Part shown: in pieces, positions 1,662 through 35,574 of the stretch | Numbering within the stretch: position 1 is the first letter of the stretch | How the letters are laid out: the number at the start of each line of letters is the position of its first letter | Virus genome (UHGV): UHGV-0125336 | Strand: one strand, 5' to 3' | DNA: 37,419 bases | DNA from: a virus | Made by a program: the position numbers and the translations under genes | Notes under the pieces: model-generated | What the model saw: the letters and a program-made list of their open reading frames with translations, nothing else | What the model was told of the DNA's origin: nothing | Databases searched by the model: none

Positions 1662-1720
1662 ATCGGGCATATCCTCCATCGCAACATGCCACATCGGGCA
1701 CAAACATAAAAACACTCAAA

Positions 1721-1750
1721 TAAGCCGATATAAGCCATTTTGAGCCATTC
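1721..1750. promoter_or_regulatory. Candidate operator: three direct repeats at exact 10-bp phasing in the C/cox divergent promoter region
   Basis: TAAGCCGATA (1721), TAAGCCATTT (1731), TGAGCCATTC (1741). Sits between the C start and the cox start, where P2 has Pe/Pc and the C operators. Confidence 0.4.
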
Positions 1751-1774
1751 GAACGAATTAGGGAGATTACCACA

Positions 1775-2062
1775 ATGAGCGAATCAGAGCTTGGGGGGTT
1801 CATTCAGGTAGCACCATATCCACTTGAAGCGGTGCCATATCAACTATTCGCCAAGATGATCGGCCGCAAGGAATCCACAGTCAGAACCATGATTGACGCA
1901 GCAAAGCTACCGACAATTGACTTTGTGAAACCAGGTTCAGTAAAGACGCGTGCATCAGAAAACTGGGTATATCTGCCAGCATTTAACGAAGGCATGCGCA
2001 AAGCGTTTTTTGAGCAACCGAAAGAACGCCGCGACGCATGGTTGTTGTGGCTGGGACTTTAG
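1775..2062 (+). CDS. cox: Cox-like excisionase/early regulator
   Basis: ...PYQLFAKMIGRKESTVRTMIDAAKLPTIDF...NWVYLPAFNEGMRKAFFEQPKERRDAWLLWLGL matches recalled P2 Cox (...PYQEFAKLIG...RRMIDKGKLPVIDM...YWVYLPAWNNG...RPKEIRDGWLMWLGL). Confidence 0.85.
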   Translation: MSESELGGFIQVAPYPLEAVPYQLFAKMIGRKESTVRTMIDAAKLPTIDFVKPGSVKTRASENWVYLPAFNEGMRKAFFEQPKERRDAWLLWLGL

Positions 2063-2068
2063 TCATAA

Positions 2069-2275
2069 ATGACCAGCCATATCATCAGCGCCATTCTGAC
2101 CCTTGTTTTTATTGAGATAGGCGTAATAGAGATCTATTTGTTTCGCAAGTTAACGGGACATGAAGAACGCTTTATTGAACTCAGCATTGAATATATCGCC
2201 GCTTATACCAAAGGACTTTTCCCGGCAGCTATTGGGGCGATGTTTATAGCGTTTGTTATCTGGTTTATCGGGTGA
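2069..2275 (+). CDS. Small hydrophobic (membrane) protein, unknown function
   Basis: 68-aa ORF directly after cox. Two hydrophobic stretches (ISAILTLVFIEIGVIEI and AAIGAMFIAFVIWFIG). No recognised family. Confidence 0.45.
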   Translation: MTSHIISAILTLVFIEIGVIEIYLFRKLTGHEERFIELSIEYIAAYTKGLFPAAIGAMFIAFVIWFIG

Positions 2276-2418
2276 GAAACCTGACAACCCACAACTACTG
2301 CAATGAGGGTAATTATGTGTGGCATGGACAAATTGGACCTTATGTTAATTGTAATACTATCAATTAACTTCGGTTACCTCTTAAGCGGCGCAATTCTCAT
2401 GTGCGGAGGCAAACGAAA

Positions 2419-2526
2419 ATGAACCAGCAGTCCGCAAAACGTGAAAACAATGCGATGCGATTTAATCGCAAATATTTTGAGTTCGGCCTCTATGCCGGAA
2501 TAATTAAATCTGTACAGAGTCTTTAA
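2419..2526 (+). CDS. Small ORF (35 aa), hypothetical
   Basis: ATG 9 nt after a GGAGG RBS (2405-2409). Stop sits 1 nt before the start of the next gene. Not in the ORF track because it is under 60 aa. Confidence 0.3.
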   Translation: MNQQSAKRENNAMRFNRKYFEFGLYAGIIKSVQSL

Positions 2527-2527
2527 C

Positions 2528-2869
2528 ATGAAACAGCAACGTAATTCACGCTTTCGCAATGGTGCAGAACGCCACGCTAACCGTTTTGCTACCAGTGCAT
2601 CACGCAGCAACATCCGCTACAGCCTGAGTGATACACACGCAACGCCGGATGGCTACCCAGTAAAACAAATCGGCGAGCATGCCTGGCTGATTGAGAAAGC
2701 TGGAATCGTGATCCACAAATGCCCACGCAATCCGTTTACCGGAAACCGCATTTTTGCTCTAAGCAGTGGCGACAATCAGTTCGGGCAGGATTTCACATTA
2801 TACGAAGCACTTCGCACGGTTGATCGTCTGCTTCGCGGGCAAAGTTTTATTAAACAGGCTGATTTATAA
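2528..2869 (+). CDS. Phage early protein, unknown function
   Basis: 113-aa ORF in the early operon between cox and A. No recognised family. Confidence 0.55.
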   Translation: MKQQRNSRFRNGAERHANRFATSASRSNIRYSLSDTHATPDGYPVKQIGEHAWLIEKAGIVIHKCPRNPFTGNRIFALSSGDNQFGQDFTLYEALRTVDRLLRGQSFIKQADL

Positions 2870-2879
2870 CAGGTGCTTT

Positions 2880-3167
2880 ATGACCAAAGACCATGCACAA
2901 GGTGTATTTATCCGTTTTATTGATTTTCGCGGTGAACTGTTATTACGTGCATCCGCTATTGACGGAGTAACTCCGGCGGGTAAAAACGGAGCCGACGAAG
3001 CCACTTACGTTTATCTGAACGGTACGCGACTGCTTTTGGAACTTCCGTACCAGACCGTACGAGAAATCATTAGCGAAGCTGAAAAGGCACGCCAGGTTAA
3101 TGGCGATGAACCCTATATCGAAATTATTTGTATGGATTCAGAAGCTGAAATACAGAAAGCAGATTAA
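2880..3167 (+). CDS. Phage early protein, unknown function
   Basis: The ORF-track frame 2766..3167 overlaps the previous gene. The first ATG clear of that gene is 2880 (MTKDHAQGVF...). Confidence 0.5.
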   Translation: MTKDHAQGVFIRFIDFRGELLLRASAIDGVTPAGKNGADEATYVYLNGTRLLLELPYQTVREIISEAEKARQVNGDEPYIEIICMDSEAEIQKAD

Positions 3168-3178
3168 AGGGCGTTGTG

Positions 3179-3421
3179 ATGGGCAAAGAATATAAAACTC
3201 TCATTAACAAAGCACTTGAGCGTTTTTATTTTCGCTTAAGTGCATCAGGCGCTCATGCTGAACGTGCGGCCCGTGACTCATTGACCAGAGCAATCCGAAG
3301 TCTGTATGACGTGGCTTTTTACGCTGATGATCTGGATGCACTTAACGAACTTTCCGAGCTGATCTGTGCCGCAGAGTGCGGGGAACATATTGAACCGTAT
3401 AAGCTGGGGAATATCGCATGA
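3179..3421 (+). CDS. Phage early protein, unknown function
   Basis: 80-aa ORF (MGKEYKTLINKALERF...) in the early operon. Confidence 0.5.
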   Translation: MGKEYKTLINKALERFYFRLSASGAHAERAARDSLTRAIRSLYDVAFYADDLDALNELSELICAAECGEHIEPYKLGNIA

Positions 3422-3531
3422 GTATATTTATCTCATGGCTTGTTCTGATTATTTCGGTGGCCTGCGCTATTGGGATTATGCGAATTATTCATTCAATAAA
3501 AAAGATTGAACGCTTTTTCACTGGCGAATAA
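3418..3531 (+). CDS. Small membrane peptide (37 aa), hypothetical
   Basis: ATGA start/stop overlap with the upstream gene suggests translational coupling. Single hydrophobic helix (IFISWLVLIISVACAIGIM). Under 60 aa, so absent from the ORF track. Confidence 0.4.
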   Translation: MSIFISWLVLIISVACAIGIMRIIHSIKKIERFFTGE

Positions 3532-3616
3532 CAGAGCAAATAAAACCACAGATTAAATAAGAAAATGTAAAACAATCCGCATTCGCGGAGGTATTCGCAC
3601 ACGCCAAGGAGGCGTA

Positions 3617-3820
3617 ATGGCAATTAAGCATTTTCCTGTCGTTCGTTTTACCTCCAGAGGGCGTGAATACGAAGTCGACGAACGCCTGATTACCACAATC
3701 GACAAACACCGTTCAGAAAAGGATGCACATCACATCTATCTCACTGACGGCACTTACTTCTGCGCCACGAATGTGGTGCGGGTGAACCTTATCCGACAGG
3801 TACAGGAGTCACGCAGATGA
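3617..3820 (+). CDS. Phage early protein, unknown function
   Basis: 67-aa ORF preceded by AAGGAGG. Confidence 0.5.
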   Translation: MAIKHFPVVRFTSRGREYEVDERLITTIDKHRSEKDAHHIYLTDGTYFCATNVVRVNLIRQVQESRR

Positions 3821-4062
3821 CCATTCTGGACTATATCGCCGCCAATCCGGGGTGTAGCGGTGGAGAAATCGCCGCAGCACTGAATACCCCAACCACAGCC
3901 ATTAATGTGGAGTTACGCCGACTCTGGCGCAGCGGTTCAGTCATAAGAAAAGAGCGCAAAACAGGCGGTCGCTTTTCTTACCAGATAAACCCGATGCCGT
4001 TCGGGTGCGGCAATCCACTTACCAACATGTTTAACCAGCTACTGAAGGAAGCCAGAGCATGA
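3817..4062 (+). CDS. Small phage protein, possible winged-helix DNA-binding fold
   Basis: MTILDYIAANPGCSGGEIAAALNTPTTAINVELRRLWRSGSVIRK resembles a wHTH pattern. Start overlaps the stop of the upstream ORF. Confidence 0.5.
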   Translation: MTILDYIAANPGCSGGEIAAALNTPTTAINVELRRLWRSGSVIRKERKTGGRFSYQINPMPFGCGNPLTNMFNQLLKEARA

Positions 4063-4358
4063 GCGCCATCAACCACCAGGAATTACGCGAACTGGCGACT
4101 GACCTGCAACGAATGGCAACGCCTCAAAAATTACTGGCGTTTCGCGCAATGCTCTCGCCGTCTGCTGTGCTGGCGCTGCTGGATGAGCTGGAGCACGCCA
4201 GAACCACACCTCTCGCCATTCGCCTGACGCTCCGTCATGAAATCGAGGATTTCTGCGCGACGTTGGAGGCGCCAGGCGAACCGGAAACGCCGGAAGCAAT
4301 ACAGCAAGAGCTGCTGCAACGCATTGACAAGGTTTTTGATTTTTTTCTGAACCACTAA
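4059..4358 (+). CDS. Phage early protein, unknown function
   Basis: 99-aa acidic, helical ORF. Start overlaps the upstream stop. Confidence 0.5.
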   Translation: MSAINHQELRELATDLQRMATPQKLLAFRAMLSPSAVLALLDELEHARTTPLAIRLTLRHEIEDFCATLEAPGEPETPEAIQQELLQRIDKVFDFFLNH

Positions 4359-4480
4359 GAAACCAGAACATGCACACACAAAAAAACCGCTTGCCATGCC
4401 GCAATCAGTCAGGTTACATTTCCGCTGCACCTCACAAAACGGGTGCCGGGTTTCGCAGCCTGCTGACTACACAAGCGCAC

Positions 4481-4502
4481 AACCGCGCCAGCGGTTTTTT
4501 TG
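4481..4502 (+). terminator. Candidate intrinsic terminator inside the early operon
   Basis: AACCGC-GCCA-GCGGTT hairpin followed by a T7 run, within the 320-bp non-coding gap 4359..4680. Confidence 0.4.
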
Positions 4503-4680
4503 TGCGTACTGTATTGCCACGTTTTTTTCGCGTCAGAATTATGGCGGGGCGTACGGGGCCGACTTCGGTCGGGCCGGGTTCTTGTGTAGCCGGTACTGCG
4601 AACCTCGTACGTCTCGCCACCCACAGTTTCGCAGCTCTGGATGGTGAGTTTTCACAACTTACTACACAAGGGGCCACACC

Positions 4681-4911
4681 ATGGCAAACCGCAAACCACA
4701 CCGCGCTATCGCGGAGCGTCGTCACATCCAGACTGAAATCAACCGCAGACTTTCCCGCGCATCACGCGTCGCGCAAATCATGCACATCAATATGCTGCAT
4801 GAGCGCAGCCACGCACTATCAAACATTTATTCCGCCTCTGTTTTCAGCTATCTGGCGGATGATCTGCACGAGCTTCAACAGCTCATCCAGCAGCAAAACA
4901 AACTCCATTAA
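4681..4911 (+). CDS. Phage early protein, unknown function
   Basis: 76-aa ORF with AAGGGG RBS 8 nt upstream. Confidence 0.5.
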   Translation: MANRKPHRAIAERRHIQTEINRRLSRASRVAQIMHINMLHERSHALSNIYSASVFSYLADDLHELQQLIQQQNKLH

Positions 4912-4983
4912 CTCCTGTTCCGGGCCTTTCCTGCACCTTGCGGCGGGAGGCCTTCGCACATCTGTAACAAGAGGATTGCCGCA

Positions 4984-5349
4984 ATGATTCTCGCCAACGA
5001 CTTTCTTGAATACCTGCTCAACACAGAACGTGATCTTGCCGCTCGCGTGCGTGATCGTTATGACATGTACCTGAAATCCCTGCCTGTACCGCAGCTCGCT
5101 GACGGAAAGATTGTTATTGATGGTCGCTACATGATTGACAGCCACGAGGGAAATTACAGGCTTTACCGCATTGAAGGTGGCACCCCGTCCGTTATTGGCA
5201 TTTACCAGCGCCCATCCACTGCAATCGTCGATGTGATTGCCGACAGCATCCGCATCACACATCGCCATGCCGACACAGAAGACACCGTGCTGGAAATTCA
5301 GCGGCTGGCTACAGTCTGCCGCGACACCCTGAATGGCATGACGAAGTAA
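4984..5349 (+). CDS. Phage early protein, unknown function
   Basis: 121-aa ORF immediately upstream of gene A. Confidence 0.55.
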   Translation: MILANDFLEYLLNTERDLAARVRDRYDMYLKSLPVPQLADGKIVIDGRYMIDSHEGNYRLYRIEGGTPSVIGIYQRPSTAIVDVIADSIRITHRHADTEDTVLEIQRLATVCRDTLNGMTK

Positions 5350-5355
5350 ATCACT

Positions 5356-8178
5356 ATGACGGCAGAGTACATCAGGGACTGGCAACAACCGCGCCACGCA
5401 GTGGGGCGTGAAGGAACGGGGATCCCCGCTCCTGAATCCGCGCTTTCCTCCTGGCTGGATGCCTACCGGGTAGAGAACGAGCACCGCCAGGAAATGGCTG
5501 ATGCGGCGTTCTCCGCAACGCTGCTGGGCAACCTGATTAATAAAAGCCTGGACGCACAGGAAAAACAGGACAAAACCATCACACTGGCAGGAGACGCCAG
5601 AAAACAGGCACGCGGCGCGGTGGATGAAGCCATGGCCTCGCTGCGCCTGCTGCCGTCCTATCTGCGCGATCCGCTTATTCGCCACCTCTCCTTCCTGCGC
5701 AAAAAACAGGAAGCCGATCGCCGGAAAGGCAAAAAGAGCTGGCAGGCTGAACACTACGCGCGCGGAACCCTGCGCAAAATATTCGAACGTCTGGATCGCA
5801 CTGACAGACGCTGGCTGACACCGGGTTATCGCTCCCTTGCCGGACGCGAACGCCTGGACGATTTGCTTTACCTGCCGCAGCTCAACAAACACCAGATACA
5901 GACGCTGGCCACCATGACGGCGGCGATGTTCAGCAGCACCTTCGAAAAACTCTGCGATGGCTTTGGCGCGACTGATGGCGAACTGACCATGGATGTAACG
6001 CTGAAGGCGTATCAGATGCTGGCCCGCATGGCGTTACACCTGCACGCCATGCCTCCACATTATGACGCACTGACAACAGACAAAGACCGGAGGAACGAAC
6101 CGGACACGGAGCTGCTGCCGGGCGCAATCCTCCGCCTGACCTGTGCGGAATGGTGGAAACGCAAACTGTGGCTGTTACGTTGCGAGTGGAGAGAAGAACA
6201 ACTCCGCGCCGCCTGTCTGGTTTCCAGAAAAACATCGCCCTATCTGAGCCAGGACGCGTTAAGCGAGTTTCGCGCACAGCGCGAGAAAACACGCGATTTC
6301 CTGAAAAGTTTCATGCTGGAAAATGAAGACGGGTTCACGATTGATCTCGAGACGGTGTATTACGCGGGAGTAAGTAACCCGGTTCACCGTAAGGCAGAAA
6401 TGATGGCCACCATGAAGGGACTGGAACTTCTGGCCGAAGCCCGTAGCGACAGAGCGGTGTTTCTGACCGTCACCTGCCCGTCAAAATACCACGCAACAAC
6501 GGAGAACGGTCATCCGAACCCCAAATGGAACGGGGCCACCATGCGCGACTCCAGCGATTACCTGGTTAACACGTTTTTTGCGGCAGTCCGCAAAAAACTG
6601 AACCGCGACGGCCTGCGCTGGTATGGCATCCGCACGGTGGAGCCTCACCATGACGGCACCGTGCACTGGCATATGATGGTCTTTGCTCATCCGGAAGAAA
6701 TCGACAGCATCGTGGCCATCACCCGCGATATTGCCATTCAGGAAGATCGTCACGAACTGGGCGATGATATTACTCCGCGCTTTAAGGCGGAGTATGTCGA
6801 CGGCTCAAAAGGCACACCAACCAGCTATATCGCGACCTACATCGGAAAAAACCTGGACAGCCGCGCCGTAGATGGCATCGACCCGAAAACGGGCAAGCCA
6901 CGCGTTGACCACGAAACCGGAAAATCAATGGCCGAGAGCGTGGAGCGCGCCATTGGCTGGGCGCGTCTTCATCGGGTCCGCCAGTTCCAGTTCTTTGGCA
7001 TCCCCTCCCGTCAGGTATGGCGTGAACTCCGCCGCCTTGCCAGCCAGATGGCACGCAACCCGGAAGGCCCGCAACGGCTGAAGGATGATGCAATGGATGC
7101 GGTACTCGCTGCCGCTGATGCCGGGTGTTTTGCCTCCTACATTGAAAAACAGGGTGGCGTGCTTGTTCCACGCAAGGACTACCTGATTCGCACCGCCTAC
7201 GACCTCGCAGATGAGCTGAACGATTACGGCGAACAGAGCGTACAGATTTACGGGATCTGGTCACCACTCATCGGGGAATCCTCCCGTGTGTGCACGCATC
7301 CGGATAACTGGAAGCTGGTAAGACGTAAACCGGAAGCGGAAGACAGCGCCCGCGAAAATGGTTTTGACCTTCAGGGCGGCCCTGCCGCCCCTTGGACTCG
7401 TGGCAATAACTGTCCCCGTGTACAGGAAACGGACAACAACGGGACAGAACAGCCGGAAGAACGGCCAGCACCGTGGCCGCAGCTTCCTGACGGCGTTGAC
7501 GTGAACGAATGGATGCGCTCACTGAAACGGCACGAACGCCGGGCGCTGATGCGTTCGCTTCGTGACAAACAGGCAAAAAACAGCAGTGATGAAATGCAGA
7601 GCTGGACACAGAGCCGCAAACAGCAGCGGCCTTTGCCTGATAACCACGAATTACTCGCTAAAGAATGGCGGGAATCTGCCGAATCTCTCGGCCTGCATAT
7701 CGGTGAACAGCAGATGCAGCACCTGTTACGGGGCGGCAGTCTGTACGTTGACGGCAGCATCATTGCACCGCAGGGATTTGAAATTGTACGCAAACCGGAT
7801 ACCCGACCGGACAGCCGAATCACGCAGCTCTGGCAGCGCCTGAGCCGTAACCACGGCGTAAGCAGTACGGAGATCCGCCATAACCCGGTCGCCAGCTATC
7901 TGGAACAGCTGAGGGCATCAGACCCCGAAGCCGCCGCACGCCTGGCATCCACACTTCAGCAAGACCAGAACACCATGAAAACACCCGTTACCGTGCTTTC
8001 TGACATGCTGCGCGCCATCCGCGACGCAGAGCACGCACAGAGAATCAGTGAAACCACTGAACGCGCCCGCCGCAAAGCAGACCTGCTGCGGGGTGGCCTG
8101 ACCAGTGGAAACAAAAAACAGACAGAAACGGGATTCACAAATCCCGTAAATGAGCAAAAAACGCGCCGCGATATATGA
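5356..8178 (+). CDS. A: Replication initiation endonuclease, P2 gpA-like (rolling-circle)
   Basis: 940-aa ORF in the A position. Contains an HHDGTVHWHMMVF metal-binding HxH-type motif and downstream tyrosines typical of HUH rolling-circle initiators. Confidence 0.9.
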   Translation: MTAEYIRDWQQPRHAVGREGTGIPAPESALSSWLDAYRVENEHRQEMADAAFSATLLGNLINKSLDAQEKQDKTITLAGDARKQARGAVDEAMASLRLLPSYLRDPLIRHLSFLRKKQEADRRKGKKSWQAEHYARGTLRKIFERLDRTDRRWLTPGYRSLAGRERLDDLLYLPQLNKHQIQTLATMTAAMFSSTFEKLCDGFGATDGELTMDVTLKAYQMLARMALHLHAMPPHYDALTTDKDRRNEPDTELLPGAILRLTCAEWWKRKLWLLRCEWREEQLRAACLVSRKTSPYLSQDALSEFRAQREKTRDFLKSFMLENEDGFTIDLETVYYAGVSNPVHRKAEMMATMKGLELLAEARSDRAVFLTVTCPSKYHATTENGHPNPKWNGATMRDSSDYLVNTFFAAVRKKLNRDGLRWYGIRTVEPHHDGTVHWHMMVFAHPEEIDSIVAITRDIAIQEDRHELGDDITPRFKAEYVDGSKGTPTSYIATYIGKNLDSRAVDGIDPKTGKPRVDHETGKSMAESVERAIGWARLHRVRQFQFFGIPSRQVWRELRRLASQMARNPEGPQRLKDDAMDAVLAAADAGCFASYIEKQGGVLVPRKDYLIRTAYDLADELNDYGEQSVQIYGIWSPLIGESSRVCTHPDNWKLVRRKPEAEDSARENGFDLQGGPAAPWTRGNNCPRVQETDNNGTEQPEERPAPWPQLPDGVDVNEWMRSLKRHERRALMRSLRDKQAKNSSDEMQSWTQSRKQQRPLPDNHELLAKEWRESAESLGLHIGEQQMQHLLRGGSLYVDGSIIAPQGFEIVRKPDTRPDSRITQLWQRLSRNHGVSSTEIRHNPVASYLEQLRASDPEAAARLASTLQQDQNTMKTPVTVLSDMLRAIRDAEHAQRISETTERARRKADLLRGGLTSGNKKQTETGFTNPVNEQKTRRDI

Positions 8179-8254: not shown

Positions 8255-9214
8255 ATGAAAATTTGTATCGATGACGGCTCCACCAACATCAAGCTGGCAT
8301 GGACTGAGAACGGCGAACGCCGCAACGCCATCAGCCCGAACAGCTTCAAGTCGGAATGGTCTGCGCCGTTCGGTGGCACGCAGCCCGCGAACTACATGCT
8401 TGATGGCGTGCGCTATGGTTTTGATCCGGTCAGCGATCGCTTTGTCCAGACGACTGACACGCAATACCAGTACAGCGATGTGAATGTCATTGCCATTCAT
8501 CACGCGCTGGTCAAATCAGGCATCACGCCACAGGAGGTGGATGTGGTTGTCACCCTGCCACTGAGCGAGTATTTCGACACAAACGCACAGCCGGACATAG
8601 CCAACATCAACCGCAAAAAAGCGAACGTTATGCGCCCGGTGGAGTACCAGAACGGCGAAGCATTCACTATCCGTAACGTACGGGTTATGCCTGAATCCAT
8701 TCCGGCTGGCTTTAAGGCACTGGCTGACATGAGTCCGTTTGAATCCCTGCTGATTGTGGATTTAGGCGGAACCACGCTGGATGTGGCAAAGGTTCAGGGA
8801 CAACTGGCAGGTATCAGCCAGGTGTTTTGCGATCCACACGTAGGCGTTTCCCTGATGGCCGATGCCGTACTGTCGGTGATGGCCACTAACGGTATGCGTA
8901 CCAGTCACCACATCGCCAATACCATTATCGAACATCGCCATGATGAAGCCTGGCTGCGCCAGCACATCCACAATGACGCGCATTACGCCAGCCTGATGGC
9001 GGTTATTCGTGAAAAGGAAGAAACACTGAAACAACGCGTGATCCGCGCGCTGGCGGGTTTTTCGGGTTACGGGCGGGTGATGGTTGTCGGTGGCGGGGCA
9101 GAGATTGTGGCACCCGCTATCCGCGAAGCCTGCGGAGTTAATGCGACTTTCATCGCGGACGGGGTGCCACAGTTTGCTCTGGTTAATGGGCTGTACGCAA
9201 TGGGCAAGGAGTAA
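8255..9214 (+). CDS. parM: ParM/StbA-like actin-type segregation ATPase
   Basis: Collinear similarity to plasmid R1 ParM as recalled: N-terminal IDDGSTNIKL, YSDVNV..HHAL, KKAN, VMPESIPAG, DLGGTTLD, GVSL, VGGGAE, LVNG. Confidence 0.8.
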   Translation: MKICIDDGSTNIKLAWTENGERRNAISPNSFKSEWSAPFGGTQPANYMLDGVRYGFDPVSDRFVQTTDTQYQYSDVNVIAIHHALVKSGITPQEVDVVVTLPLSEYFDTNAQPDIANINRKKANVMRPVEYQNGEAFTIRNVRVMPESIPAGFKALADMSPFESLLIVDLGGTTLDVAKVQGQLAGISQVFCDPHVGVSLMADAVLSVMATNGMRTSHHIANTIIEHRHDEAWLRQHIHNDAHYASLMAVIREKEETLKQRVIRALAGFSGYGRVMVVGGGAEIVAPAIREACGVNATFIADGVPQFALVNGLYAMGKE

Positions 9215-9218
9215 ACCA

Positions 9219-9530
9219 ATGACGACACCAACCAGACGGATAAGTTTCTATCTGAAGCCCGCCGCCGTCAAGAACGAAGGCGAAGCATGCGCCTGGCTGG
9301 ACAGCCTTACACCAGAAGCCCGCAAAAGTGGTCAACGCGTGGCTTTTCTGGCCGGGCTGGCACTACTGAAAATGAATCCGGCAGAGGCTTACCGACTGGC
9401 TGCATGGGCTGATGATGAGGCGTTATCAATGACACAAACCAGGACAGAACGCCCCGCGTCACAGCCAGTATCAGCCGCACAGATAACCAGTCAGATGGCC
9501 GGAAATATCCGGGCGTTATTTCCCGAATAA
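9219..9530 (+). CDS. parR: ParR-like centromere-binding adaptor
   Basis: ISFYLKPAAV...LDSLTPEARKSGQRVAFLAGLALL...IRALFPE parallels recalled R1 ParR (IAFKLNPDV...LDSIPQGERSRLNRAALTAGLALY...LRSLFPK). AAGGAG RBS, 5 bp after parM. Confidence 0.6.
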   Translation: MTTPTRRISFYLKPAAVKNEGEACAWLDSLTPEARKSGQRVAFLAGLALLKMNPAEAYRLAAWADDEALSMTQTRTERPASQPVSAAQITSQMAGNIRALFPE

Positions 9531-16417: not shown

Positions 16418-17218
16418 ATGATTACTCCTGCACAGCAACACTGGCAGAACGTGATGGCACAGCGCGCAGGCCGGGCGAATGAAGGCGTGGACCACGCCGC
16501 GCGTACCGCGCATGAAGAGGTGCTGTATCGTCTGCGTCTGGCACAGGCCCGGCTTAAGGGCGTACAGGCCAGAAGCGCGAAAGCCGCCATCAAAAAAGAG
16601 TTATTGCCGGACTTTTCCGGCTGGATTGAGGGAACGCTGGAGGCTGACGGCGGGCAGCAGGATGAAGTGATTGCCACGCTGATGGTGTGGGCGATTGACT
16701 GCAGCGATCTTCCGCTGGCGCTGCGTATTGGTGCGTATGTGGTCCGTCACAACCTCATCATGCCGGATAACTTTGGCCGTACTGCTGCCACGGTACTGAC
16801 CGAAGAAATCTGCAATCCGGTACTGACGCAGGCCGGGACGGATGCCGACGCGGATTTGTCCGCCTTTATCGAACCACTGGACACCCTCCGGGAGATTGTC
16901 ACCGACCAGGACATGCCGGACGAAGTGCGCGCCAAATTATGCAAGGCGTGCGCCTTTGCCCGCCGTGGCCTGAGCGATGCGGACAGCATGGCCTCATCAC
17001 TGAAGCTGCTGCGCGAAGCGATGCACCTGAACCCGAACGCAGGTGTGAAACGCGAGATTGCAACCCTTTCCCGCGCCCTGAAAAAAGCTGATTCCGCAGC
17101 CGCACCAGAAGATGCCAGCACACCGCAGACGCAGGACGAAAGCAGCAAAAGTAAAAAGACAACGCGGAAGCCTGCAACACGAAAAACCACCGCGACGCAG
17201 AAGGCGAAGCGCGGTTAA
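16418..17218 (+). CDS. M: Terminase small (endonuclease) subunit, P2 gpM-like
   Basis: 266-aa ORF after N, with basic C-terminal tail. Confidence 0.8.
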   Translation: MITPAQQHWQNVMAQRAGRANEGVDHAARTAHEEVLYRLRLAQARLKGVQARSAKAAIKKELLPDFSGWIEGTLEADGGQQDEVIATLMVWAIDCSDLPLALRIGAYVVRHNLIMPDNFGRTAATVLTEEICNPVLTQAGTDADADLSAFIEPLDTLREIVTDQDMPDEVRAKLCKACAFARRGLSDADSMASSLKLLREAMHLNPNAGVKREIATLSRALKKADSAAAPEDASTPQTQDESSKSKKTTRKPATRKTTATQKAKRG

Positions 17219-17234
17219 CGACTGACCCCGTCAG

Positions 17235-17305
17235 CGGGCGGCGTGCGCGGTGTTCCGGTTTGACTCCGTGACCGTTTACACCGCGCACCCACCGCCCGAT
17301 TTTTT
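17235..17305 (+). terminator. Long imperfect hairpin plus T-run between M and L (possible attenuator)
   Basis: GCGGGCGGCGTGCGCGGTG (17235-17253) pairs imperfectly with CACCGCGCACCCACCGCCCG (17279-17298), followed by ATTTTTT just before the L RBS. Confidence 0.3.
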
Positions 17306-17310
17306 CAGGA

Positions 17311-17814
17311 GTGAACCCCATGAGTATGGTTGCCAGAACTGAACCCGGACCCGCAGAGGACGACATCACCGATACCGATGATGGTGATACCCGTATTTCA
17401 GCGGGCGCATTCTGGCCGGATATTGTGCTGCGTGAGCTGCGTCTGGCGATACGACTGCCGGGCCGTGTGACCACCTCCCGCCTGCTGCATACCGCCACCG
17501 GGGCCGTGGCACACGTTACCCGCGAACTGGAAGCGTGGCAGCAGGAACAGCAGGCGGCTGGCCATCAGACGCTGGCCGATGTTCCGGCACCCGTAATTAA
17601 CGGAGAAAGCGTCAATCTCTGGCACTGGCGCAATGCCGTTTATACCGCCACACGCGCCCTGATTCTGGAGCGTTACCGCGATGCGGACACAACGGACAAG
17701 GGCGACCGCCGGGCGGACGCACTGGATATACAGACATCGGATTTGTGGCGAGATGTGAGCTGGGCCATCTCTGACATTCTGTGCCGCCCGCGAATCTTTG
17801 CGGAGTTGTGCTGA
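17311..17814 (+). CDS. L: Head completion/stabilisation protein, P2 gpL-like
   Basis: 167-aa ORF in the L position. Confidence 0.8.
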   Translation: MNPMSMVARTEPGPAEDDITDTDDGDTRISAGAFWPDIVLRELRLAIRLPGRVTTSRLLHTATGAVAHVTRELEAWQQEQQAAGHQTLADVPAPVINGESVNLWHWRNAVYTATRALILERYRDADTTDKGDRRADALDIQTSDLWRDVSWAISDILCRPRIFAELC

Positions 17815-18014
17815 TGAAAGTGAAGGCACTGGAAGGCGACACCGTGGATTCGCTCTGTTTTCGGTACTACGGCACGACGCAGGGCGTCACCGAAAAGGTG
17901 CTGGATGCCAACCCCGGACTCTGTCAGCAGGTATTTCTGGACGCCGGGCAGGAAGTGGAGATGCCGGAGCCGGAGAAGAAGAAACGAGAAATGATTCAGT
18001 TGTGGGGGGAGTAG
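17814..18014 (+). CDS. X: Tail protein X-like (LysM-type)
   Basis: ATGA overlap with the L stop. MKVKALEGDTVDSLCFRYYG... start is typical of gpX. Confidence 0.7.
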   Translation: MKVKALEGDTVDSLCFRYYGTTQGVTEKVLDANPGLCQQVFLDAGQEVEMPEPEKKKREMIQLWGE

Positions 18015-18016
18015 TA

Positions 18017-18340
18017 GTGAGCACCATTCAAACAGGGATCACAGAGCAGGTTATTGCGTGGCTCTTTGACCACCTGCCAACGGTGTATGCAGCAGGCGCG
18101 GCGGTCAGCATTTCCGCGCTGATGAGTCTTTATGACGGACGAACGCTGGTTCAGACCGTAACGGGATCGCTGGCGTGCGGCGTTCTTGCCATGGCCGTGG
18201 CTGGGTCGTTGCGCTTCTTCGGAGTTCCTGAAGATGCCGTGACGTTTTTCGGCGCATCTATCGGTTTTATGGGCGCAGAAAAAGCACGCGACAAGATCAT
18301 TGCCGCCTTTAACCGCATAACCCAAAAGGGAGATGAATAA
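18017..18340 (+). CDS. Y: Holin, P2 gpY-like
   Basis: GTG start after a GGGGGGAG RBS. Hydrophobic TM stretches (AAGAAVSISALMSL and GSLACGVLAMAVAGSL). Sits in the lysis cassette. Confidence 0.6.
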   Translation: MSTIQTGITEQVIAWLFDHLPTVYAAGAAVSISALMSLYDGRTLVQTVTGSLACGVLAMAVAGSLRFFGVPEDAVTFFGASIGFMGAEKARDKIIAAFNRITQKGDE

Positions 18341-34000: not shown

Positions 34001-34190
34001 CAGGCAGAATTGCCGGAGTAACAAAAAAGCGATAGATTACGCGCGGGTGCCTTTCGGCTGATGGTCGGAGGGAATACCCGAAGGCCAGATGTGGAAAGGC
34101 CCCGGAAAACATTTCTGTTTAACCGAGGCCCTAACCGTCTAACCTTAGCAAGTGATAGGTTAGCGCCTCCCTGAAAAAGGAGCAAGCGCT

Positions 34191-34331
34191 ATGTCGCAAA
34201 AATCGCTTACGGCCATCACGTTCTGCGTGACGGCAATCCTCATCATCTGGATGCTGCACGGTTCGCTGTGCGAAATACGGATGAGCTTCTGGGGAGCGGA
34301 GTTTGCGGCGTTCTTACAGTGTAAGCAGTAA
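34191..34331 (+). CDS. hok: Hok/Gef-family type I toxin (46 aa)
   Basis: MSQKSLTAITFCVTAILIIWMLHGSLCEIRMSFWGAEFAAFLQCKQ: one TM helix, then the SLCEI motif and an AAFL.CK C-terminus, closest to HokA as recalled. SD AAGGAG (34177-34182) sits in a hairpin. A GNRA-loop hairpin follows the stop (34341-34362). Confidence 0.7.
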   Translation: MSQKSLTAITFCVTAILIIWMLHGSLCEIRMSFWGAEFAAFLQCKQ

Positions 34332-34545: not shown

Positions 34546-34740
34546 TATCCCCCGCATTGTCTGAATGCCGCCTCTTACCTTTCGCGGTCAACTGACGACT
34601 TCTAGTTCTAGAACGCCTTGATTTTTTGTACTTGTACATTGAAAAATAACCATAAATTGTTAGCCTGTGCAGTAGACTCAGTGGCGGTAACTGGTCAGCA
34701 TGAAGTGTAAAGTGAATAACGAAGCTCTAAAATTATAGGG

Positions 34741-35574
34741 ATGGTCATGAATAATAAGCTAAAGGTAATTGAGTTAAATAGTCTTGATCTGTTTCGTAAA
34801 GAATTACTAACTACTATAAAGCCAGAGAAAGTAGAGAAATTACTTAGATGGTATCTTCAATCATATGGCGGTGTTAATTTCAAGTTCGGTTATGACAGAC
34901 CAATTTTTAGAGCGCGAAAGTGCCCAAATGAATGCGGATATAATAACATCAGTGAGATATATCCCCCTCCACCAGAAAAATGTAAAATAGGCCGAATGAA
35001 TGATGATGGACAAGCTATCTTCTATGGCGCTTATAGTATCGGAACAGCTTTAGCCGAAATTAATGCAAAAGAAGGGGATTATGTTCACATAGCTCACTTT
35101 AAGATGCCGGAAAATTCAGAGTCTGGAATGCGATGTTTTGCTATCGGTGAGGTCTTTAATGTGTATCACGGTGTAAATACAATTTCAATTGAAGTGTTTA
35201 ATGAAATTCGCGACATCATTAGCAGAATTGGTAAGGACGACATCCGAGCTTTGCTATCATATTTGTATATGGATGCCCTTTCTGCTGAGTTGCTTAATAG
35301 TATCAATGCCCATGAGGTAAATTATATTTACTCAAGAATTTTTTGCCGTCTTCTTCTTGATAAATACCCTGATGTTGATGGTCTTATTTATCCTAGCGCT
35401 AAAATAAAAGGGGCCTCAAATATCGCTTTGCGCACAGAAACAGTTAAATCGAGAATGCATTTAGTTGCTAATCTTGTGTTTAAAGTAAATAAAATTTATC
35501 CATATGGAATAGTAGATTTCAGTATAGTAAAACAAGCCAAAGGACATACATCAGATGGGCGCATCGTTTGGTGA
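34741..35574 (+). CDS. RES-domain-like protein (putative NAD+-targeting toxin fold) with an N-terminal extension
   Basis: KIGRMNDDGQAIFYGAYSIGTALAEI fits the RES pattern (G-R-W/M-N..G...Y.A.S...A..E), and DGLIYPSAKIKGASNIAL fits the second conserved block. No adjacent Xre/antitoxin-like ORF. AT-rich. Confidence 0.5.
   Translation: MVMNNKLKVIELNSLDLFRKELLTTIKPEKVEKLLRWYLQSYGGVNFKFGYDRPIFRARKCPNECGYNNISEIYPPPPEKCKIGRMNDDGQAIFYGAYSIGTALAEINAKEGDYVHIAHFKMPENSESGMRCFAIGEVFNVYHGVNTISIEVFNEIRDIISRIGKDDIRALLSYLYMDALSAELLNSINAHEVNYIYSRIFCRLLLDKYPDVDGLIYPSAKIKGASNIALRTETVKSRMHLVANLVFKVNKIYPYGIVDFSIVKQAKGHTSDGRIVW

What the first reader, a model, noticed from the sequence alone, without database searches (positions are those of the whole stretch)
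2419..3531. Two unannotated small ORFs (35 and 37 aa) coupled to early genes
Both fall below the 60-aa cutoff of the ORF track. The first (2419-2526) has a GGAGG RBS at ideal spacing. The second (3418-3531) starts by ATGA overlap and encodes a single TM helix. Small membrane peptides in phage early operons often act on host targets.
Basis: seen in the sequence. Interest (0 to 1): 0.3.

Follow-up and report, generated by a model that had tools for sequence, protein, structure and literature searches.

The report
Small coupled ORFs in prophage early operon

Summary
The window is a complete P88-like (Xuanwuvirus, P2 family) prophage beside pdxB. Both ORFs exist exactly as described.

ORF2 (3418-3531, 37 aa) is a real gene.
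- It is open in 163 of 163 related loci, with the ATGA overlap onto DUF4754 in 162.
- It keeps that overlap in a Salmonella prophage that is far more divergent in DUF4754.
- In-frame pN/pS is 0.27, against 1.2-1.3 off-frame and 0.21 for DUF4754.
- It is not unannotated. RefSeq calls it WP_000021652.1, and it occurs in 1384 of 5426 complete E. coli genomes.

ORF1 (2419-2526, 35 aa) is weaker.
- It occurs only in one immunity-module lineage (235 of 5426 genomes, all at least 97% identical), and PGAP does not call it.
- Its only relative is an in-frame N-terminal extension of DUF4761 in a sister lineage.
- Between lineages the first 27 codons look coding (pN/pS 0.49, P about 0.04). Within the lineage there are 1 synonymous and 4 non-synonymous changes, plus one frameshifted allele.
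- It is most likely a translated relay ORF.

A third ORF, ORF0 (2315-2422, 35 aa, one TM helix), overlaps ORF1's start by ATGA and is conserved in another module.

No known protein or RNA family matches any of the three. Functions remain inferred.

The parts
2069..2275 (+). orf68: a 68-aa hydrophobic protein (phrog_14475). [quoted passage not shown] Listed for context.
   Evidence: Within-lineage polymorphism is 2 synonymous to 7 non-synonymous.
2305..2309 (+). GAGGG Shine-Dalgarno-like element 5 nt before the ORF0 start.
   Evidence: Read. The 148-nt-type homologue has AAGGAG 7 nt before the equivalent ATG.
2315..2422 (+). ORF0: 35 aa, MCGMDKLDLMLIVILSINFGYLLSGAILMCGGKRK. One TM helix (residues 11-29) and a basic C-terminus. 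Its stop overlaps the ORF1 start (ATGA).
   Evidence: Annotated as NC_049391 gp42. A 35-aa homologue (66-67% nt identity) in L184 and L186 overlaps the DUF4761 start by ATGA. pN/pS is 0.41-0.46 in frame against 0.7-2.4 off-frame, P = 0.007-0.026.
2405..2409 (+). GGAGG Shine-Dalgarno element for ORF1, 9 nt before the ATG. It lies inside the ORF0 coding sequence.
2419..2526 (+). ORF1: 35 aa, hydrophilic and basic. Flanked by ATGA (with ORF0) and by TAA-C-ATG (with DUF4761). It ends in CTT TAA C.
2528..2869 (+). DUF4761 gene (113 aa), immediately downstream of ORF1. Its 5' end is the recombination junction between immunity modules.
   Evidence: Pfam PF15958, E = 2e-69. At least 10 different upstream arrangements were seen.
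3179..3421 (+). DUF4754 gene (80 aa, predicted helical hairpin). It is the upstream coupling partner of ORF2.
   Evidence: Pfam PF15946, E = 3e-54. AF2 pLDDT 88.8 with helices 4-48 and 52-66. No PDB fold match.
3406..3409 (+). GGGG purine-rich Shine-Dalgarno-like element 8 nt before the ORF2 ATG, inside the Leu-Gly codons of DUF4754.
   Evidence: The Gly codon is GGG or GGA in the sequences printed for 162 of 163 loci (one printed blank) and is never GGY.
3418..3531 (+). ORF2: 37 aa, MSIFISWLVLIISVACAIGIMRIIHSIKKIERFFTGE. TM helix at residues 3-21 (nt 3424-3480), then a basic juxtamembrane stretch and a short tail.

Best explanation
The interval is part of the Pe-driven early lytic operon (cox to gene A) of a P88-like P2-family prophage. 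It holds three short cistrons strung together by start/stop overlaps.

ORF2:
- Shown: it is a bona fide gene for a 37-aa single-pass membrane protein, always placed directly behind DUF4754 with an ATGA overlap and under purifying selection.
- Inferred: it is translated by termination-reinitiation coupling, so it is made together with DUF4754.
- Inferred: it inserts into the inner membrane N-out/C-in by the positive-inside rule. The conserved R-I-I-x-S-x-K-K-I-E tail would then face the cytoplasm.
- Inferred: it acts early in lytic growth as a membrane-anchored accessory factor. The most likely role is tethering or working with the acidic helical DUF4754 protein, or modulating a host membrane protein.
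- Inferred: because the repressor C shuts off Pe in the lysogen, it is a lytic-cycle function and not a lysogenic-conversion function.

ORF0 is a second micro-protein of the same kind. It is an optional cassette between orf68 and DUF4761.

ORF1:
- Inferred: it is probably translated, given its GGAGG site and its ATGA overlap with ORF0. It would hand ribosomes on to DUF4761 through TAA-C-ATG.
- Shown: it is a lineage-specific piece of the recombination junction in front of DUF4761, and the same sequence forms an in-frame N-terminal extension of DUF4761 in a sister lineage.
- Inferred: the peptide itself is at most weakly functional.
For: Context:
- The window is 99.8-100% identical over 1700-4100 to Xuanwuvirus P884B11 and to an E. 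coli chromosome. The gene order is int, C, cox, small genes, A, then late genes.

ORF2:
- Open in 163 of 163 loci at 30-45 aa, with ATGA in 162 and GTGA in 1.
- pN/pS 0.27 in frame, 1.27 and 1.19 off-frame, and 0.21 for DUF4754.
- Substitutions in the TM segment stay hydrophobic (I/V/L/M/F/A).
- Positional homologues keep the 4-nt overlap: a 50-aa form in a Salmonella prophage whose DUF4754 protein is highly divergent and a 41-aa form in a divergent assembly.
- The Shine-Dalgarno-like purines are kept at a synonymous site.
- PGAP annotates it, and it is in 1384 of 5426 genomes.

ORF0:
- A 35-aa homologue with its own Shine-Dalgarno element and an ATGA overlap exists in another module type. The in-frame synonymous excess gives P = 0.007-0.026.

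ORF1:
- Intact in 28 of 29 window-type viral loci.
- Against the 152-aa-type extension, the first 27 codons give pN/pS 0.49 (0.26 for codons 15-27) versus about 1 off-frame, P = 0.04 and 0.02.
- No RNA structure or Rfam family competes for the sequence.
Against: - No experiment, expression data or family membership supports any function. PHROGs, Pfam, NCBIfam and PDB give nothing for the three peptides. A profile search of 1.84 billion representatives finds only the same narrow family.
- ORF2's last residues tolerate frameshift variants of 34, 41 and 45 aa, some of them common. This weakens a tail-binding model.
- The DUF4754 partnership rests only on invariant adjacency.
- ORF1 is absent from most relatives. 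DUF4761 follows cox, orf68 or ORF0 directly in those.
- ORF1 within-lineage polymorphism is 1 synonymous to 4 non-synonymous, against 43 to 13 in cox plus DUF4761 (Fisher P = 0.019).
- One ORF1 allele is frameshifted (L181, P0099).
- ORF1's last 8 codons are out of frame relative to its only homologue.
- PGAP never calls ORF1.
Confidence: 0.6

Rival explanations
1. One reading: both peptides are host-directed effectors of early phage development (for example toxic or growth-arresting small proteins hitting a host target), each acting on its own.
For: - ORF2 and ORF0 are conserved membrane micro-proteins in an early operon whose other small genes have no assigned function in the libraries searched.
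- The orf68-ORF0-ORF1 module shows an excess of amino-acid-changing polymorphism, 3 synonymous to 12 non-synonymous against 43 to 13 in the flanks (P = 9e-5). An arms-race gene could produce that pattern.
Against: - No similarity to any known effector or toxin family.
- ORF1 has no TM segment, is missing from most relatives and is fused to DUF4761 in its only relative.
- The excess of non-synonymous change sits on very low synonymous diversity (3 sites in 423 nt). That is also what recent spread with lagging purifying selection would give.
Confidence: 0.2
2. ORF1 is not a gene. It is a chance open frame in a recombination scar between the immunity module and DUF4761, and it is not meaningfully translated.
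For: - Open-frame length is not significant (P = 0.19).
- Only two lineages exist anywhere in the viral and metagenome scans.
- Within-lineage changes are mostly non-synonymous, and one allele is frameshifted.
- PGAP leaves it out in all 25 RefSeq genomes listed, sampled evenly across the 235 that carry it.
- Only the first 12 nt resemble the DUF4761 start, which suits a junction repeat.
Against: - A GGAGG site 9 nt upstream, an exact ATGA overlap with ORF0 and a stop 1 nt before the next start make an arrangement typical of coupled cistrons.
- The excess of synonymous differences in frame against the sister lineage includes five silent changes across the conserved F-R-YFE-G-YAG motif.
Confidence: 0.25
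3. ORF1 and DUF4761 are joined by a programmed +1 ribosomal frameshift at CUU UAA C (2521-2527), as in prfB. This would give a 149-aa long form equivalent to the 152-aa in-frame protein of the sister lineage, alongside the 113-aa short form.
For: - ORF1 ends CTT TAA C. A +1 slip from CUU to UUU reads AAC ATG AAA, which is in frame with DUF4761.
- In the sister lineage the homologous sequence is fused in frame with no stop.
- CTTTAA is kept in all window-type sequences seen.
Against: - The Shine-Dalgarno-like stimulator placed 3 nt upstream of the slippery codon in prfB is absent here; the sequence is GUACAGAGU.
- From textbook knowledge, UAA is an efficient stop.
- All window-type sequences are at least 97% identical, so keeping the site proves nothing.
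- PGAP starts DUF4761 at the internal ATG even in the in-frame lineage, and that ATG has its own GGAG site.
Confidence: 0.04
4. ORF2 (or ORF0) is a type I toxin-like or holin-like killing peptide.
For: Size and a single hydrophobic helix with a basic C-terminus resemble such peptides.
Against: - It is translationally coupled inside a polycistron rather than carried on its own mRNA.
- No antisense RNA family and no significant structure were found.
- The prophage's lysis cassette (holin, M15 endolysin, DUF2570) lies elsewhere, at window positions about 17161-18277.
- A separate Hok/Gef gene is present in the window and is unrelated.
Confidence: 0.03

Closest known systems
Phage P88 gp07 'membrane protein' (YP_009113050.1), RefSeq WP_000021652.1 / WP_000021667.1 'hypothetical protein'
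   Same: This is the same gene as ORF2 (97-100% identity), in the same position behind DUF4754 with the same 4-nt overlap.
   Different: Nothing differs. The entries carry no function, and no Pfam, PHROG or NCBIfam family covers them.
Xuanwuvirus P884B11 HYP18_gp42 and gp43 (NC_049391), and the equivalent ORFs of Escherichia phage PhiR44_2
   Same: Identical or 97%-identical calls of ORF0 and ORF1 as 'hypothetical protein'.
   Different: These are automatic annotations. RefSeq PGAP omits both ORFs in the 25 E. coli genomes listed, sampled evenly across the 235 that carry the segment.
N-terminal extension of DUF4761 in the '152-aa type' P88-like prophages (e.g. L191; E. coli 02E060)
   Same: It is homologous to ORF1 over the first 27 codons (59% nt identity, motif F-R-YFE-G-YAG) and has the same start context after orf68 or ORF0.
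   Different: It is in frame with DUF4761 and has no stop. A 1-nt length difference puts ORF1's last 8 codons in another frame. PGAP does not include the extension.
Chromosomal single-TM micro-proteins that modulate larger membrane proteins (AcrZ, MgrB, MgtS, SgrT). Recalled from general knowledge, not tested here.
   Same: Size of 30-50 aa, one TM helix and a short charged cytoplasmic tail.
   Different: No sequence similarity was found. Those genes have their own promoters and known partners. ORF2 is phage-borne, sits in an operon and has no known partner.
prfB (RF2) +1 frameshift site CUU UGA C. Recalled from general knowledge.
   Same: ORF1 ends CUU UAA C, and a +1 shift would join it to the next gene.
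   Different: The upstream Shine-Dalgarno-like stimulator is missing, and the stop is UAA rather than UGA. There is no evidence for a fused product.

Membership tests
ORF2 family (P88 gp07 / WP_000021652-like small membrane proteins; not a curated family) | Sequence similarity over the TM helix plus the R-I-I-x-S-x-K juxtamembrane motif. | tested here: met
   97-100% identity to P88 gp07 and WP_000021652.1. The profile search retrieves the same family only.
ORF2 family (P88 gp07 / WP_000021652-like small membrane proteins; not a curated family) | Position directly downstream of DUF4754 with a 4-nt start/stop overlap. | tested here: met
   162 of 163 loci have ATGA and 1 has GTGA. The overlap is also present in Salmonella L207 and in L227.
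   pN/pS 0.27 in frame against 1.19-1.27 off-frame; the neighbouring gene gives 0.21.
   Between lineages pN/pS is 0.49 (P = 0.04) over 27 codons. Within the lineage there are 1 synonymous and 4 non-synonymous changes plus a frameshift allele. ORF1 is absent from most relatives, and its 3' end is out of frame with its homologue.
Type I toxin-antitoxin toxins (Hok, Ldr, Ibs, TisB and similar) | Own transcript with a cis or nearby antisense RNA and structured mRNA control. | tested here: not met
   No Rfam hit in 2300-3600. Folding z-score is -1.1. The ORF is coupled by ATGA inside a polycistron.
Holins and other lysis-cassette peptides | Location next to the endolysin in the late lysis cassette. 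| tested here: not met
   The holin, M15 peptidase and DUF2570 genes lie at window positions about 17161-18277. ORF2 is in the early operon.
Bacterial lipoproteins | A lipobox with an invariant Cys after a signal peptide that has a basic n-region. | tested here: not met
   ORF2 has S-V-A-C at 13-16 but no basic n-region. The Cys is replaced by M, F or S in divergent members.
Leader peptide or attenuator uORF | A short ORF whose translation controls alternative RNA structures or a terminator ahead of the regulated gene (tested for ORF1). | tested here: not met
   The 2276-2570 fold has a z-score of -0.67. Only a weak 6-bp hairpin lies at 2451-2470.
prfB-type programmed +1 frameshift | A slippery CUU followed by a stop codon and C. 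| tested here: met
   CTT TAA C at 2521-2527.
prfB-type programmed +1 frameshift | A Shine-Dalgarno-like stimulator about 3 nt upstream of the slippery codon. | tested here: not met
   The upstream sequence is GTACAGAGT, with no AGGGGG- or GGAGG-like element.
prfB-type programmed +1 frameshift | Detection of the trans-frame fusion product. | not testable with these tools
   This needs a western blot, mass spectrometry or a reporter assay.

The most novel reading that the evidence does not exclude
ORF2 and DUF4754 could form an obligate two-part early module, a membrane anchor plus an acidic helical-hairpin partner. This pair is strictly co-inherited with a fixed 4-nt overlap in all 165 loci examined, of Escherichia and Salmonella prophages and one unassigned metagenome assembly. 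It would act on the host envelope or on a membrane-bound host machine during P88-like lytic development. Separately, the ORF1-DUF4761 pair could be read as one protein through a prfB-like +1 shift at CUU UAA C.
Probability: 0.1. Interest if true: 0.45.

Novelty: new member of a known kind. Interest (0 to 1): 0.2.

Why it matters
- P88-like prophages sit in about a quarter of complete E. coli genomes (1384 of 5426). ORF2 is therefore one of the commoner uncharacterised micro-proteins of the species, and it is clearly a real gene.
- Showing that ORF2 is real, and already annotated, removes a false 'unannotated' lead.
- ORF0 and ORF1 mark a small gap in PGAP annotation in 235 complete genomes.
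- The cox-DUF4761 junction is a tidy example of cassette-wise gain, loss, splitting and fusion of tiny ORFs.
- None of this changes current understanding of phage biology unless a function is found.

Tried and rejected
1. Family searches. PHROGs, Pfam, NCBIfam and PDB sequence searches for ORF0, ORF1 and ORF2 gave no hits.
2. Homologue searches.
   - The 41-aa versions found only close relatives.
   - The profile search of 1.84 billion representatives gave 18 hits, all from the same family.
3. Context through DUF4754 structure. The AF2 model is confident (pLDDT 88.8) but is a plain helical hairpin. Foldseek against PDB gave nothing below E = 2.
4. RNA explanations. There are no Rfam hits in the interval. 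Folding z-scores are -0.67 and -1.11. Promoter-like sites are at chance level.
5. ORF1 as a tandem duplicate of the DUF4761 5' end. Only the first 12 nt (ATGAAnCAGCAr) match, and the remainder gives P = 0.24.
6. A weak DUF4761 Shine-Dalgarno element (AGAG) compensated by an upstream coupled ORF. The L077-type has the same weak element and no upstream ORF, so this is not supported as a rule.
7. Wider taxonomic reach. The species-representative genome scan with a DUF4761 profile gave only Salmonella, E. albertii and a probably contaminated Vagococcus assembly.
8. One viral scan was partly wasted on a pattern that excluded the window type.
9. Literature. There are no papers on DUF4754 or DUF4761 and nothing on these ORFs.
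10. A lipoprotein reading of ORF2 was rejected.
Full report
**Identity of the window**

- Positions 1700-4100 are 100% identical to an E. coli chromosome (strain UTME-6) and 99.8% identical to Xuanwuvirus P884B11. They are 93% identical to phage P88 from position 2549 onward.
- The RefSeq annotation of the identical chromosome segment shows a complete P2-family prophage next to pdxB. Its order is:
  - integrase, C-type repressor, cox;
  - a run of small early genes;
  - the gene A replication endonuclease;
  - ParM-like partition genes;
  - P2-type head, lysis and tail genes, and ogr.
- The finding lies in the rightward early operon, between cox (1775-2062) and gene A (5356-8178).

**Check of the observation**

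- ORF1:
  - ATG at 2419 and TAA at 2524-2526.
  - GGAGG at 2405-2409, so the spacer is 9 nt.
  - The stop is followed by one base and then the ATG of the DUF4761 gene (2528).
- ORF2:
  - ATG at 3418, overlapping the TGA of the DUF4754 gene (ATGA).
  - Residues 3-21 are strongly hydrophobic (mean Kyte-Doolittle 2.68).
  - ORF0 has its own GAGGG element 5 nt upstream.
  - It has one hydrophobic helix (residues 11-29, KD 2.13) and a KRK C-terminus.
- Length alone proves nothing. From a fixed start, shuffled sequence stays open as long in 11-19% of trials.

**Annotation status**

- ORF2 is annotated by PGAP (WP_000021652.1) in the identical chromosome. It is gp07 'membrane protein' in phage P88.
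- A segment matching ORF2 occurs in 1384 of 5426 complete E. coli genomes. It carries a 'hypothetical protein' call in every listed row that covers it.
- ORF0 and ORF1 are called only in NC_049391 (gp42, gp43) and in PhiR44_2.
- The 252-nt segment that holds them occurs in 235 of 5426 genomes, always at 97% identity or more. Nothing is annotated under it in the 25 rows listed, which were sampled evenly across the 235.
- All three exact peptides are present in the public protein collection as 'hypothetical' or 'uncharacterised' proteins. ORF2 is sometimes labelled 'prophage membrane protein'.

**ORF2 is a real gene**

- I anchored on DUF4754 and on three of its divergent versions and collected 163 loci.
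- Every locus has an open frame starting at the DUF4754 stop. The start is ATGA in 162 and GTGA in 1. Lengths are 37 aa in most, 45 aa in 9, 41 aa in 2 and 30 aa in 3.
- Over the shared first 30 codons of 53 distinct haplotypes, pN/pS is 0.27 in frame. It is 1.27 and 1.19 in the other two frames. The accepted neighbour DUF4754 gives 0.21 in frame and 1.1-1.5 off-frame.
- Replacements in the helix are hydrophobic for hydrophobic.
- The arrangement survives greater divergence.
  - A Salmonella prophage with a far more divergent DUF4754 protein has a 50-aa TM peptide starting at the same ATGA.
  - A divergent assembly has a 41-aa version with the same 4-nt overlap.
- The Gly codon 8 nt upstream is GGG or GGA in the sequences printed for 162 of the 163 loci, which keeps a purine-rich Shine-Dalgarno-like element.
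- The extreme C-terminus is less constrained. One-base indels give 34-, 41- and 45-aa forms, some of them frequent. More distant members nevertheless keep a K-x-I-E-x-L/F-F-T-G-D/E tail.
- The family is small and narrow. It comprises Escherichia, Shigella and Salmonella prophages and P88-like phages. Only 18 hits came from 1.84 billion representatives.

**ORF1 is a weaker case**

- The space between the gene upstream and DUF4761 is a swapping point. Among 58 loci that carry orf68, the spacer takes many lengths: 14, 119, 148, 251/252, 570, 739, 782 or 1586 nt. Other loci join cox or unrelated genes directly to DUF4761.
- All four combinations of the two small ORFs exist:
  - neither ORF (14 nt);
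  - ORF0 only (148 nt, with ORF0's ATGA on the DUF4761 start);
  - ORF1-like only (119 nt);
  - both ORFs (252 nt, the window type).
- In the 119-nt type the ORF1 homologue (MNKQQRNGKPHNTGFRRNYFENGRYAGEVNRYGVFD) runs in frame into DUF4761 and gives a 152-aa open frame. PGAP starts that gene at the internal ATG, which has its own GGAG site.
- Pattern scans of the viral and metagenome collections for the conserved F-x-R-x-YFE-x-G-x-YAG core found only these two lineages.
- Between the two lineages, the first 27 codons are 59% identical in DNA.
  - pN/pS is 0.49, and 0.26 for codons 15-27.
  - The off-frame values are about 1.
  - The one-sided binomial test gives P = 0.04 and 0.02.
- After codon 27 a 1-nt length difference puts the window's last 8 codons (IIKSVQSL) in another frame. 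The DNA there is the conserved ribosome-binding region of DUF4761.
- Within the window lineage, 15 haplotypes show 1 synonymous and 4 non-synonymous changes in ORF1. Codon 24 alone is L, R, I or S.
- The flanking genes cox plus DUF4761 show 43 synonymous to 13 non-synonymous changes (Fisher P = 0.019).
- One allele (L181, also E. coli TA008) carries a frameshift.
- The whole orf68-ORF0-ORF1 block has very low synonymous diversity (3 sites in 423 nt) and 12 non-synonymous sites.
  - This fits recent spread with lagging selection.
  - It also fits relaxed or diversifying selection.
  - The data do not separate these.

**ORF0**

- Compared with its 148-nt-type homologue (35 aa, 66-67% DNA identity, same start context and same ATGA onto the next gene), pN/pS is 0.41-0.46 in frame against 0.7-2.4 off-frame. 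P is 0.007-0.026.
- ORF0 is better supported as a gene than ORF1.

**What it is not**

- No Rfam family lies in the interval and neither region folds better than shuffles. Promoter-like matches are at chance level.
- ORF2 is not in the lysis cassette, which sits at about 17.2-18.3 kb.
- ORF2 is not organised like a type I toxin.
- The Cys in S-V-A-C is replaced in divergent members, so ORF2 is not a lipoprotein.
- ORF1 is not a detectable duplicate of the DUF4761 5' end beyond a shared 12-nt start.
- DUF4754 models as a confident helical hairpin with no informative structural neighbour.
- No paper in the held library mentions DUF4754 or DUF4761.
- Searches for P88, Xuanwuvirus and small membrane proteins of P2-like early operons returned no paper whose title or abstract concerns these ORFs.

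**Mechanism**

- Shown:
  - gene order;
  - the start/stop overlaps;
  - conservation and selection for ORF2, and more weakly for ORF0;
  - the hydrophobic helices;
  - the split or fused state of ORF1.
- Inferred:
  - Translation by termination-reinitiation along ORF0, ORF1 and DUF4761, and from DUF4754 to ORF2.
  - N-out/C-in insertion of ORF0 and ORF2, from the basic C-termini.
  - Expression only when the C repressor releases Pe. This follows from the established P2 switch (background in PMC3448106).
  - ORF2 acting at the inner membrane together with DUF4754 or on a host membrane protein.
- I put ORF2 being a translated membrane protein at about 0.9. I put any specific partner or target at 0.3 or less.
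- For ORF1, I put translation at about 0.6 and an independent peptide function at about 0.3.
- The prfB-like reading of CUU UAA C is kept as a long shot (about 0.04) because the upstream stimulator is absent.

**Verdict**

- This is an ordinary feature of a common prophage.
- ORF2 is a real, already catalogued micro-protein gene of unknown function.
- ORF1 is a marginal, lineage-specific ORF best read as a relay or junction remnant.
- ORF0 is a small omission in RefSeq annotation.
- Interest is low (0.2). The case is a new member of a known kind.

Noticed in passing
window 4427-4501 and 4537-4624 (+): Rfam finds isrK (64 bits) and C4 antisense RNA (83 bits) inside the early operon. The 205-aa ORF at 4370-4987, annotated as 'transcriptional regulator' in NC_049391, therefore covers RNA genes and is probably spurious. 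PGAP annotates only a 76-aa ORF (4681-4911) and a 121-aa ORF (4984-5349) after them. This looks like a P1/P7-style c4-type antisense immunity or antirepressor unit in a P2-family phage. A divergent relative (L227) has a weak 'Derepression' Pfam hit at the equivalent place.
   Followed up: partly
window 2063-2527 and related loci L004-L227: The cox-DUF4761 junction is a module-swapping hotspot. At least ten different upstream arrangements were seen, and the spacers after orf68 are 14, 119, 148, 252, 570, 739, 782 or 1586 nt. ORF0 and ORF1 behave as optional cassettes bounded by the repeated start ATGAAnCAGCAr.
   Followed up: yes
window 2069-2526: The orf68-ORF0-ORF1 block has 3 synonymous and 12 non-synonymous segregating sites, against 43 and 13 in the flanking cox and DUF4761 (P = 9e-5). 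Codon 24 of ORF1 (2488-2490) alone is L, R, I or S.
   Followed up: partly
window 3505-3531 and ORF2 homologues: One-base indels near codon 28-33 of ORF2 give common alternative tails such as ...KRLNAFSLANN... and ...RFSLVNNDTNKTSN, in forms of 34 to 50 aa. The last few residues therefore appear dispensable or interchangeable.
   Followed up: partly
window about 34176-34316 and 34732-35559 (from coordinates): Beyond ogr, at the far end of the window, RefSeq annotates a Hok/Gef family gene and a RES-family NAD+ phosphorylase. A zinc-ribbon gene and a TagO gene follow. This may be prophage-end cargo or a neighbouring island.
   Followed up: no
window about 8255-9530: A ParM-like segregation gene and a 'plasmid partitioning/stability family' gene lie directly after gene A, at a P2 cargo hotspot position.
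   Followed up: no
L209 (Vagococcus sp. WN89Y contig NZ_JBQPOM010000071.1): An assembly labelled as the Gram-positive Vagococcus carries a P88-like early region with an ORF2 peptide identical to common E. coli variants. This is most likely contamination with enterobacterial DNA.
   Followed up: no
window 2451-2470: A 6-bp inverted repeat (TGCGATGCGATTTAATCGCA) lies inside ORF1 and is followed by T-rich sequence on both strands. It scores as terminator-like on both strands but is weak, and the region's folding energy is not unusual.
   Followed up: partly
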